IMG/VR virus record: IMGVR_UViG_2645727991_000008
From: a virus
Taxonomy: Duplodnaviria > Heunggongvirae > Uroviricota > Caudoviricetes
Reading direction: 5' to 3' (one strand)
Length of the DNA stretch: 12,523 bases
Made by a program: the position numbers. Of this stretch, positions 9,001-12,000 are shown piece by piece. Within the stretch, counting starts at the first letter, position 1, and each line of letters starts with the position of its first letter.

Positions 9001-12000
9001 GAAACAGATATTGGAGAACCGGGGAATGAATGATGTCTGAGTCTTATATATCAGAACTCCTTCGCTGTCGCTGGGGGCTCCTGTGCTTATGTCGTTTCCC
9101 CGATTCGGTTTTGAACGATTACCGAATGTTGAAGAATTATGCCAAAATATAGAAAGGATTTACTGCATGAATACCCAATATTTACAGTATGTTCGTGAGC
9201 AACTTATGGCAGCTACTGCTGACTTGAACGGAGCAACGAAAGGCCAGCTCGAAGCCTGGCAGGAGCATGCACAATTTGATACTGGTACATACAAACGAAA
9301 GAAGCCGCGCATTCTGGATGTGGTAACTGGCAAGATGATTACGCTGGATAATACGCCGACTTCCGGTAAGCAGTCGTACGCAAAAGGTTCATCCATTGCT
9401 TTGGTCAGCCCGGTTGAATTCTCAACCTCTTCATGGCGCCGCGCGGTTTTGTCTCTCGATGAACATCAGAAAGCATGGTTGCTTTGGTGTTACAGCGAAA
9501 GCGTTCGATGGGGGCATCAGGTCACCATAACGCAATGGGCATGGAGCGAGTTTAAAGATTTGTTAAGTAACAGAAAAATTGCAGGTAAGACACTGGATCG
9601 CCTGAAGACGTTAATCTGGCTGGCTGCACAGGATGTGAAGAGCGAACTTGCAGGGCGTGAGGCCTATGAATACCAGACACTGGCATCATTGGTGGGAGTG
9701 ACAACAAAAAACTGGTCCGAGACATTTACTGAACGCTGGGTTGCAATGAAGCACATTTTTCTACAGCTTGATAGTGATGCTTTATTGCTTGTGACGAGAA
9801 CACGTTCAAAACAAAAGGCAGCATTTTTACAGCAAAATATTGCAAAACTGGATTAAAAGCCATATACTTCATGCAAATTTGGTATGTTGTAAAAAATGTA
9901 TAAACCCGCTGCCGAGTGGGTTTTTTTTATGCCCTGAGTTGTACTTGTACGGTAAACATGCTGGCTGCTATGTAATAGAGTTTTTTTAGCCTGTAACCTC
10001 TTGACGGCATTGAATTGCTTTTGTTATGAGTTGTAAGTCAATGTTATCATCTTGTATTGGGGTGGTTATGAAGGATGGTGCGCTGCTCAGGAGTTCTTCA
10101 CTTTTTATTGCCTACATGGGATGCCTTGGATGGGGGAGTGCTTATTTCTATGGATGGGGTACTTCTTTTTACTACGGCTTCCCATGGTGGATTGTAGGTG
10201 CAGGTGTTGATGATGTTGCCAGAAGTTTATTTTTTGCAGTTATCGTCATTGCTATATTTCTTATCGGTTGGGGTATTGGTGTTGTATTCTTTTTCGCAGT
10301 GAAAAGAAAACATTCTATGCAAGAGCTAAATGTATTTCGCCTTTATTTTGCTGTGGAATTATTGTTTGTGCCGGCAATTATTGAGTTTTCTATATTGAGA
10401 CAGAAGATTCAGGTACCTCTTTTGCTACTGTCAGCAGCGATTGCGCTGGCGGTTACAATTTCGATAAGATCTTATGGGCGATTTTTATCGGTATCATGCT
10501 TCTATGATAAGCCATTTATAAAAAAACATTTTTTTGAGATTGTGATGATTGCTTTTGTGGCATATTTTTGGCTTTTTTCATTTCTGACAGGATATTACAA
10601 ACCACAGTTTAAGAAAGAATATGAAATGATTAATTATAATGATGGTTGGTATTATGTTCTTGCTCGTTATGATAATTGTCTGGTTTTGTCTACTTCTTTC
10701 AATGCAGGTAGTAAAAGGTTTGTCATTTATCAATCAGCACAAGATAAGAATCTTCAGGTTGATATTGTAAGGACCAGAATTTAATTGGCTGCATAAATAA
10801 TATTTTAAGTTGCAAGTTGGCTATTCGTAGGAATAGAACCTTAGGCATGCTGAATGCGTTTTCTGAACATTGTTTTATAAACTGTGTCTGCTTGCTGTTG
10901 TGATCCTGCTTTTAGTGATGGTGATGATGGATTTCACCAGCAGGATAATGTTGGTACTGACTGATGGCGCTCTGGTCTGCGGCATTGTGGTATTGCTGTG
11001 GCCGATGATGAAAGAACAGAATGAATAATTCTTGACTTTTTTGTTTACTGTTTATTAAAAAATCAACCGCATGGTGAATCCTCCTTGGAGGGGCTAAATG
11101 ATCGAGTTTTAAGGGCACGTAGCGAGTTCTGTTTGATCATTGCAGAACTTAGCGGGAGGCGCCATGCGTACATCACTAGTGTTATTCCTTTTATCATTTT
11201 CCTTGTGAGTTCTGGCTGCGCATTGCGCAGCCTTTTTTTTATGACCTGCCACTGGCAGATGGTCATCCTGTGATTTGATTCCGCTTCCGGCTTTTTAACT
11301 CTGTTCCTCTACACGGGAGAAATTCGATGTCGATTAAACATTACGATGTTATCAGGGCGGCGTCGCCGTCAGACCTTGCGGAAAAGCTGACACACAAACT
11401 GAAAGAGGGCTGGCAGCCATACGGCGGACCGGTTGCCATTACGCCGTACACACTGATGCAGGCGGTGGCTATTGAAGGAGAGCCACAGGTCGGCCCTTCA
11501 TCTGAGCCGGATTGGTACTACGTCATCGTACTGGCCGGGCAGTCCAATGCCATGGCTTACGGTGAAGGGCTTCCGCTGCCGGATTCATACGATGCTCCGG
11601 ATCCGCGCATTAAACAGCTGGCGCGCCGCAGTACAGTGACGCCGGGCGGGGCTGCCTGCAGATATAACGATATTATTCCGGCTGACCACTGTCTGCATGA
11701 TGTGCAGGATATGAGTACGCTGAATCATCCGAGGGCTGACCTGAGCAAAGGGCAGTACGGCTGTGTCGGCCAGGGTTTACATATTGCCAAAAAACTGCTC
11801 CCGTATATCCCGAATAACGCGGGGATCCTGCTGGTACCATGCTGTCGTGGTGGTTCGGCATTTACCCAGGGCGCGGAGGGGACATTCAGCGAGTCCACGG
11901 GGGCCAGTCAGGATTCGGCACGCTGGGGGGTGGCAAGCCGTTATATCAGGATCTGATTTCCCGCACAAAAGCGGCATTGCAGAAAAATCCCAAAAACGTT

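What the first reader, a model, noticed from the sequence alone, without database searches (positions are those of the whole stretch)
9083..9928. Replacement Q-like gene followed at 46 nt by a terminator: candidate non-lambda late antitermination module
The first rightward gene after the Q remnant encodes about 230 aa with no lambda Q similarity. Its stop is followed by an intrinsic terminator (9902-9928) and then by the late-region genes. If this is the Q/qut/terminator unit, the terminator is unusually close to the gene end, so the late promoter would overlap the 3' end of the Q-like gene or the pre-terminator transcript would be very short. Alternatively the terminator ends the early transcript and the late genes have separate promoters, for example the candidate promoter at about 10001-10030.
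Basis: inference. Interest (0 to 1): 0.4.

Follow-up and report, generated by a model that had tools for sequence, protein, structure and literature searches.

The report
Phage 82-type Q late-gene switch
This is an ordinary, already described late-gene switch of a lambda-like phage: a phage 82-type Q antiterminator gene whose last codons hold the late promoter, followed by a pause signal and a terminator about 50 bases into the transcript.

Summary
Gene 9167-9856 (229 aa) is followed 45 nt after its stop by an intrinsic terminator: stem 9902-9923, T8 9921-9928.

The protein is a full-length member of Pfam PF06323 (E 1e-91). It is 89% identical to the characterised Q antiterminator of phage 82. 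The block 9000-10100 is 99.9% identical to phage 434 (OL657226), where the gene is annotated "Q82-like" and the terminator is marked.

The short gap has a simple cause. The late promoter overlaps the end of the gene:
- -35 TTGCAA at 9840-9845, inside the last Q codons
- -10 TATACT at 9863-9868
- start AAA at 9875
- sigma70 pause element TG-g-TATGTT at +6..+14 (9880-9888)
- T at +25 (9899)
- terminator at +28..+54

This matches the published anatomy of phage 82 pR'. The layout is conserved downstream of Q82-type genes in many enterobacterial genera, at 75% identity against 62% for the adjacent coding DNA. The same very short leader recurs in four other lineages.

The module is a known kind in a known phage, and interest is low. 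The only small departures from phage 82 are a ~50-nt leader (about 75-80 nt in close phage 82 relatives) and GTA instead of GCC at +15-17.

The parts
7519..7608 (+). Remnant of a lambda-type Q gene: about 20 lambda-Q-like N-terminal codons, then unrelated codons and a stop. It marks where the lambda-type late switch was replaced.
   Evidence: Sequence read. The same 90-nt CDS in the phage 434 record is annotated as an N-terminal fragment of lambda Q. PGAP calls it a partial antitermination protein in an O157:H7 prophage.
9030..9152 (+). YlcG-family small ORF just upstream of Q, in the same position as orf45 of phage 82.
   Evidence: NCBIfam NF033498, E 7e-13. Phage 82 record X92588 has the order rus-orf45-Q.
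9167..9856 (+). Q82-family late-gene antiterminator, 229 aa.
   Evidence: PF06323, E 1.1e-91, 306.8 bits, profile positions 1-216 of 220. 203/229 residues identical to phage 82 Q with no gaps. Annotated "Q82-like" in OL657226.
9840..9845 (+). pR' -35 hexamer TTGCAA, inside the last Q codons.
   Evidence: Promoter scan, TTGCAA-17-TATACT. TTGCAA is found in 43 of 45 distinct family sequences (TTGCGG and TTGCAG in the other 2).
9846..9862 (+). 17-bp spacer, the expected place of the Q-binding element (QBE). It spans the Q stop codon.
   Evidence: [quoted passage not shown] The spacer differs at 2 of 17 positions from loci whose Q is 100% identical to phage 82 Q. Q binding itself is inferred.
9863..9868 (+). 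pR' -10 hexamer TATACT.
   Evidence: The family consensus is TATATT.
9875..9875 (+). Predicted transcription start: first A of AAA, 19 nt after the stop codon.
   Evidence: 82 pR' starts with AAA (PMC5001585). This A lies 7 nt after the -10 and is aligned with the AAA of phage 82-like loci.
9880..9888 (+). Sigma70-dependent pause element: extended -10 TG (+6, +7) and -10-like TATGTT (+9..+14).
   Evidence: PMC5001585 describes the phage 82 element as having an extended -10 and ending at +14, with the discriminator at +15-17. TGnTATnnT is conserved across genera.
9899..9899 (+). Predicted pause position +25 (T).
   Evidence: The phage 82 pause is at +25 with U preferred (PMC5001585). This position is a pyrimidine in 43 of the 45 distinct family sequences, and all 43 have the standard spacing; the 2 exceptions are out of register by 1 nt. 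Pausing here is inferred.
9902..9928 (+). tR': intrinsic terminator at +28..+54 (stem 9902-9923, T8 9921-9928). It gives a leader RNA of about 50-54 nt.
   Evidence: Annotated as a terminator in OL657226. The same hairpin, AACCCGC/GCGGGTT, sits at the same distance in L007, L016, L018 and L021.

Best explanation
This is a phage 82-type late-gene antitermination module.

1. The 229-aa protein is a Q82-family antiterminator.
2. The constitutive late promoter pR' overlaps the end of its gene: -35 at 9840-9845, -10 at 9863-9868, start at 9875.
3. RNA polymerase that initiates there keeps sigma70. Sigma70 rebinds the -10-like element at +9..+14, and the complex pauses near +25.
4. Without Q the polymerase escapes and terminates at the hairpin plus U8 at +28..+54. 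This releases a leader RNA of about 50 nt.
5. With Q, the protein bound to the QBE between -35 and -10 joins the paused complex and makes it terminator-resistant. The polymerase then reads through tR' and the later terminator at 11214 into the moron genes, the esterase gene and the lysis and structural genes.

Shown here: family membership, the sequence anatomy and its conservation.
Inferred from phage 82 biochemistry: the start point, the pause, Q binding and readthrough.
For: - PF06323 match at 306.8 bits against a cut-off of 25.
- 89% identity to the experimentally characterised phage 82 Q.
- 99.9% DNA identity over 9000-10100 to viable phage 434, whose record names the gene Q82-like and marks the terminator. 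[quoted passage not shown]
- The promoter scan gives TTGCAA-17-TATACT.
- The published 82 pR' features all fit loci whose Q is 100% identical to phage 82 Q. These features are an AAA start, an extended -10-like element ending at +14, GCC at +15-17, sigma binding at RNA length 21 and a pause at +25 with U (PMC5001585). All but the GCC also fit the window, in the same register.
- Among 19 loci spanning about 59-89% protein identity to the window's Q, the -35..+17 stretch (partly coding, mostly non-coding) is 75% identical. The preceding 100 nt of coding DNA is 62% identical and +28..+80 is 31%.
- In more than 1000 E. coli genomes, homology to the window ends at 9889 (+15). The gene, promoter and pause element therefore travel as one unit.
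- In an O157:H7 prophage with the same block, holin and lysozyme genes follow 1.8 kb downstream.
Against: - There is no transcript mapping for this sequence. The promoter scores only 9 of 12 consensus positions, and promoter-like sites are not enriched in the region.
- The discriminator at +15-17 is GTA, not GCC. In 82 pR', changing each of these bases to A roughly halves the pause half-life (PMC5001585). The pause here may be weaker or displaced.
- The terminator stem has a G-U pair where relatives have G-C.
- I did not have the phage 82 QBE sequence, so Q binding to 9846-9862 is untested.
Confidence: 0.9

Rival explanations
1. The terminator only ends the rightward early (pR/Q) transcript. 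Late genes start from separate promoters downstream, for example at about 10001-10050.
For: Promoter-like sites exist downstream: TTGTTA-18-TATCAT with an extended TG at 10021-10050, and TTGACG-17-TTATGA at 10001-10029, read directly. The terminator and everything downstream of it also occur behind a different, lambda-type Q gene. The terminator would in any case stop unmodified polymerase arriving from upstream.
Against: - A complete phage 82-type promoter plus pause element sits directly upstream of the terminator. It is more conserved than the adjacent coding DNA.
- In the lambda-type locus L005, a lambda-like pR' with its own pause element again precedes the stretch aligned with the terminator. 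That fits the region lying directly downstream of a late promoter, although the hairpin itself looks degraded in L005.
- The downstream promoter-like sites sit in front of a membrane-protein cassette that has its own terminator (11214-11232). That is the usual layout of a moron, not of a late operon.
Confidence: 0.05
2. The module is a decayed or non-functional copy in a cryptic prophage. The GTA discriminator and the G-U pair in the stem would be signs of decay.
For: The window is a 434-like element, not phage 434 itself: 98.9% identity over 5890-12523. Its downstream esterase gene carries a 1-nt deletion relative to 434. The discriminator differs from that of phage 82.
Against: - The Q gene is intact and full length.
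- The 9000-10100 block differs from plaque-forming phage 434 at a single base (10038), which lies outside the module.
- The identical 251-nt block is present in 618 of 5426 complete E. coli genomes.
- A related short-leader design with GTC at +15-17 occurs in another lineage, L018.
Confidence: 0.04

Closest known systems
Phage 82 Q / pR'82 / terminator (Q82 family, Pfam PF06323)
   Same: - The protein is 89% identical, with the same length and no gaps.
- The upstream neighbour is the same (ylcG/orf45).
- The -35 lies in the last Q codons, with a 17-bp spacer.
- The start is AAA, the pause element is TGnTATnnT at +6..+14, and +25 is a pyrimidine (PMC5001585, PMC4914094).
   Different: - 8 of 49 positions differ between -35 and +14 (my count from the rows).
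- +15-17 is GTA, not GCC.
- The terminator hairpin starts at +28, against about +53 in loci with a phage 82-identical Q. The leader is therefore about 50 nt rather than about 75-80 nt, and it lacks the TGCCA...TGGCA hairpin-like segment found in those loci.
Phage 434 (OL657226) late control region
   Same: 99.9% identical over 9000-10100. The gene order is the same: NinG, phosphatase, Q remnant, LpxR, YlcG, Q, membrane protein, DUF3927, esterase.
   Different: The window is only 98.9% identical over 5890-12523, differs to the left of 5890, and has a frameshifted esterase gene. The 434 record does not annotate pR' or the pause element.
Lambda Q / pR' / tR' (6S RNA)
   Same: The logic is the same: a constitutive promoter just after Q, a QBE between -35 and -10, a sigma70-dependent promoter-proximal pause, and a terminated leader RNA in the absence of Q (PMC4914094, PMC7547250).
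   Different: The protein family is unrelated (PF03589; no similarity). Lambda pauses at +16 and its leader is 194 nt. The lambda-type Q in this window is reduced to a 29-codon remnant.
Q21/Q933W late promoters and the StxS small RNA
   Same: A short RNA is made from pR' by termination at tR' in lysogens (PMC7547250).
   Different: The Q family is different (PF06530). StxS is a processed 74-nt Hfq-binding RNA with shown targets. Nothing of that kind is known for the ~50-nt leader here.

Membership tests
Q82-family antiterminator (Pfam PF06323, Phage_antiter_Q) | Full-length match to the family profile above the curated cut-off. | tested here: met
   E 1.1e-91, 306.8 bits against a cut-off of 25; residues 4-219 on profile positions 1-216 of 220.
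Q82-family antiterminator (Pfam PF06323, Phage_antiter_Q) | Close similarity to the experimentally characterised phage 82 Q. | tested here: met
   203/229 residues identical, no gaps, E 1e-153. 89.6% DNA identity to X92588.
Q82-family antiterminator (Pfam PF06323, Phage_antiter_Q) | Position at the end of the nin region, upstream of the lysis genes. | tested here: met
   NinG, phosphatase, (Q remnant, LpxR), YlcG, Q in the window. Holin and lysozyme lie 1.8 kb downstream in the identical O157:H7 block.
Phage 82-type pR'/qut site | Sigma70 promoter directly after or overlapping Q, with an AAA start. | tested here: met
   TTGCAA-17-TATACT and AAA at 9875. In register with loci whose Q is identical to phage 82 Q. 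This is sequence evidence only.
Phage 82-type pR'/qut site | -10-like pause element with extended -10 ending at +14; pause at +25 on a pyrimidine. | tested here: met
   TG at +6/+7, TATGTT at +9..+14, T at +25, against the description in PMC5001585. Pausing itself was not tested.
Phage 82-type pR'/qut site | G/C-rich discriminator GCC at +15-17. | tested here: not met
   The window has GTA. Most relatives have GCC or CGC, and L018 has GTC. In phage 82 this element tunes pause half-life and position (PMC5001585). It affects strength rather than kind.
Phage 82-type pR'/qut site | Q-binding element between -35 and -10 that is bound by the cognate Q. | not testable with these tools
   The location is taken from PMC4914094. 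The spacer 9846-9862 differs at 2 of 17 positions from phage 82-like loci. No binding data exist for it.
Phage 82-type pR'/qut site | Intrinsic terminator downstream of the pause that Q-modified polymerase reads through. | tested here: inconclusive
   The terminator is present at +28..+54. Q-dependent readthrough was not tested.
Lambda-Q family (PF03589) | Profile match. | tested here: not met
   The only Pfam hit for the 229-aa protein is PF06323. The lambda-type Q survives only as the remnant 7519-7608.

The most novel reading that the evidence does not exclude
The ~50-nt leader made constitutively from this pR' in lysogens might act in trans as a small regulatory RNA, as StxS does for Stx phages. 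The identical block is present in 618 of 5426 complete E. coli genomes, including O157:H7.

A second point concerns mechanism. The terminator hairpin begins only 3 nt after the +25 pause site. If this module is as efficient as that of phage 82, Q82 must make the complex terminator-resistant essentially at the pause. That would make it a compact natural template for the one Q family that has no homologue among solved structures.
Probability: 0.07. Interest if true: 0.4.

Novelty: already known. Interest (0 to 1): 0.1.

Why it matters
It matters little beyond annotation. The analysis places the late promoter, the pause element and tR' of phage 434 and of a common E. coli/O157:H7 prophage type at single-base resolution. 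The 434 GenBank record marks the gene and the terminator but not these sites.

It also shows that Q82-type late promoters come in a short-leader form (about 50 nt) and a long-leader form (about 65-80 nt). Natural variants at the +15-17 discriminator offer ready-made test cases for work on sigma70-dependent pausing.

Tried and rejected
- **Rfam, whole window, gathering thresholds:** no match, so the leader is not a curated RNA family.
- **PDB sequence search with the protein:** only spurious hits, E 0.12 and 0.4.
- **NCBIfam:** no model hit for the Q protein or the membrane protein.
- **Template sequences of PMC4914094:** the supplementary files are not held. I reconstructed the phage 82 pR' sequence from loci whose Q is 100% identical to phage 82 Q, then checked it against the features stated in PMC5001585.
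- my coordinates for four loci were 17 nt off. That alignment covers the terminator but not the pause element, and I used it only for the hairpin.
- **Homology break at +15:** I first read this as a fusion to foreign DNA. Other genera have homologous short leaders (L007, L016, L018, L021), so the short leader is a family variant. A real mosaic joint does exist at about 9890-9902, because the terminator and the cassette after it also follow lambda-type Q genes.
- **TTGC-N6-TTGC "CII site/paQ" on the minus strand at 9832-9845 (434 record):** this is a pattern match inside constrained coding sequence. I did not adopt it.
- **Large protein-database searches and structure prediction:** not run, because family membership was already decisive.

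Full report
**What is at 9083-9928**

The ORF 9083-9856 is real. Its probable start is the ATG at 9167, preceded by AAAGGA, which gives 229 aa. The phage 434 record uses the same start. The stop codon is 9854-9856.

A hairpin of 9 pairs (9902-9923, loop of 4) followed by T8 (9921-9928) lies 45 nt downstream. RNA 9875-9930 folds at -15.3 kcal/mol with z = -3.6. One slip: the first rightward ORF after the lambda-Q remnant (7519-7608) is a YlcG-family ORF at 9030-9152, not the Q-like gene.

**What the protein is**

- Its only Pfam hit is PF06323, Phage_antiter_Q: E 1.1e-91, 306.8 bits against a cut-off of 25, covering essentially the whole profile.
- It is 203/229 residues identical, without gaps, to the Q antiterminator of phage 82 (X92588). 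Phage 82 Q is one of the three experimentally studied Q types; the others are lambda and 21/933W (10.1101/651190).
- The PDB holds no sequence relative.

**Where the DNA comes from**

- Window 9000-10100 is 99.9% identical to phage 434 (OL657226). That record annotates the gene as "Q82-like" and marks the terminator.
- The window is a close relative of 434, not 434 itself: 98.9% identity over 5890-12523, and different to the left of that.
- The same block, from NinG through the remnant, LpxR, YlcG and Q to the membrane protein, lies in an E. coli O157:H7 prophage. There a holin and a lysozyme gene follow 1.8 kb downstream.
- The 251 nt at 9780-10030 occur nearly intact in 618 of 5426 complete E. 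coli genomes.

**Why the terminator is so close**

The promoter scan finds TTGCAA (9840-9845), a 17-nt spacer, and TATACT (9863-9868). The -35 lies in the last Q codons and the spacer spans the stop codon.

The literature describes phage 82 pR' as follows:
- The transcript starts with AAA.
- A -10-like pause element with an extended -10 ends at +14, followed by a GCC discriminator at +15-17.
- Sigma70 rebinds at an RNA length of 21.
- The complex pauses at +25, where U is preferred (PMC5001585).

Loci whose Q is 100% identical to phage 82 Q carry TTGCAA-17-TATATT-6-AAATCTGATATTTTGCCAATGTTGT. This fits every one of those statements.

In the same register the window reads AAATTTGGTATGTTGTAAAAAATGT:

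| Feature | Position | Window coordinates |
|---|---|---|
| Start, AAA | +1 | 9875 |
| Extended -10, TG | +6, +7 | 9880-9881 |
| -10-like TATGTT | +9..+14 | 9883-9888 |
| Predicted pause, T | +25 | 9899 |
| Terminator hairpin | +28..+49 | 9902-9923 |
| U tract ends | +54 | 9928 |

The composite motif occurs once in the window and in none of 200 shuffles. The pattern was derived with knowledge of this sequence.

**Conservation**

I collected 100 loci encoding relatives of the protein. They give 45 distinct downstream sequences.
- In 43 of the 45, -35, spacing, -10, start and TGnTATnnT are present at the same fixed spacing, with small variants such as AGA for TGA at +6-8 or GAA/ATA/TAC at the start. 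In the other 2 the register is shifted by 1 nt. The set includes Citrobacter, Klebsiella, Raoultella, Enterobacter, Franconibacter, Superficieibacter and Scandinavium, at 59-73% protein identity.
- Among 19 loci (the window, 17 from those genera and one phage 82-identical locus), ungapped pairwise identity is 75% for -35..+17. It is 62% for the 100 coding nt before it, 49% for +18..+27 and 31% for +28..+80. The mostly non-coding control region is thus more constrained than the gene's own 3' end.
- In more than 1000 E. coli genomes, homology to the window stops at 9889 (+15). The gene, promoter and pause element move as one unit.

**The short leader is a recurrent variant**

The hairpin AACCCGC...GCGGGTT, followed by a T-rich tail (a clean T run in three of the four), sits at the same distance in L007 (Superficieibacter), L016 (Scandinavium), L018 (an Enterobacteriaceae isolate) and L021 (Citrobacter). 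Among the other loci where my simple scan found a terminator, the hairpin usually starts at about +47 to +60 (+53 in phage 82-like loci) and the RNA would end at about +65 to +80; a few are irregular and in several no terminator was found.

From 9903 onward, the terminator and the gene cassette after it also occur behind a lambda-type Q with a lambda-like pR' in other E. coli prophages. There is therefore a mosaic joint between the pause element and the terminator.

**Mechanism (inferred from phage 82 biochemistry; not tested here)**

1. pR' fires constitutively.
2. Sigma70 retained in the early elongation complex binds TATGTT, and the complex pauses near +25.
3. Without Q the polymerase terminates at +50-54 and releases a short leader. 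PMC7547250 notes that such short RNAs are made from the late promoters of lambda, 21, phi80, 82 and P22.
4. With Q bound at the QBE, the paused complex is converted to a terminator-resistant form. It reads through tR' and the terminator at 11214-11232 into the downstream genes.

Phage 434, which carries an essentially identical module, forms plaques. The module is therefore presumably functional.

**Departures from phage 82**

- Eight of 49 positions differ between -35 and +14 (my count from the rows).
- +15-17 is GTA instead of GCC. In phage 82, substitutions at these positions shorten the pause two- to five-fold and help set its position (PMC5001585).
- One stem pair is G-U where relatives have G-C.
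- The leader is about 25 nt shorter.

These are differences of degree.

**Rivals**

- *The terminator merely ends the early transcript, and late genes start at about 10001-10050.* This is unlikely, given the conserved promoter and pause element directly upstream. The promoter-like sites at 10001-10050 fit better as the promoter of the membrane-protein cassette, which ends at its own terminator.
- *The module is a decayed copy.* This is unlikely because the gene is intact, and the block differs from phage 434 at one base outside the module.

**Verdict**

The finding is correct and ordinary. It is a known kind of module (Q82 type) in a sequence already deposited and annotated. The apparent oddity follows from the standard layout of that family. 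Interest is about 0.1.

Noticed in passing
window 11327-11956 and onward (1-nt deletion at 11931 relative to OL657226): The DUF1737/SASA sialate-esterase (nanS-p-like) gene is 616 aa in phage 434. In the window it stops after 209 aa because one G is missing. This is either a pseudogene or a sequencing error.
   Followed up: partly
window 7730-8692 (-): An LpxR-family lipid A deacylase gene (PF09982, E 4.5e-40) lies on the opposite strand between the lambda-Q remnant and ylcG/Q82, flanked by very AT-rich DNA (8693-9000). It is a moron inserted into the rightward operon. The same arrangement occurs in 434 and in O157:H7 prophages.
   Followed up: partly
window 7519-7608 (+): A 29-codon remnant of a lambda-type Q gene follows directly on the phosphatase gene. 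It shows that a lambda-type late switch was replaced by the LpxR-YlcG-Q82 block.
   Followed up: yes
window 9990-11273 (+): A moron-like cassette. It holds promoter-like sites at 10001-10050, an STM1630-family membrane protein (start at 10041 or 10069, end at 10784), a DUF3927 protein (10870-11028), a small ORF (11085-11273) and a strong terminator (11214-11232). Together with tR' (from 9903), the cassette also sits behind lambda-type Q/pR' in other E. coli prophages, for example L005.
   Followed up: partly
L072, L076, L083 and similar loci, about +14..+36 of their pR' transcripts: Long-leader Q82-type loci share the segment TGCCAnTGTTGTAnGCAnTGGCA, a possible hairpin just after the pause site. 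The 434-type short leader lacks it. Another group has GTCGCC...GTCGAC at the same place.
   Followed up: no
window 9832-9845 (-): The 434 record marks TTGC-N6-TTGC as a CII-binding site and a "paQ" -35 on the minus strand, overlapping the pR' -35. It is a consensus match within coding sequence and is only partly conserved in relatives.
   Followed up: partly
window 7647-7690: An inverted repeat, GTGCGAAAT...ATTTCGCAC, with T-rich sequence after it lies between the Q remnant and the end of lpxR. It may be a bidirectional terminator. The scan missed it because the loop is long.
   Followed up: no
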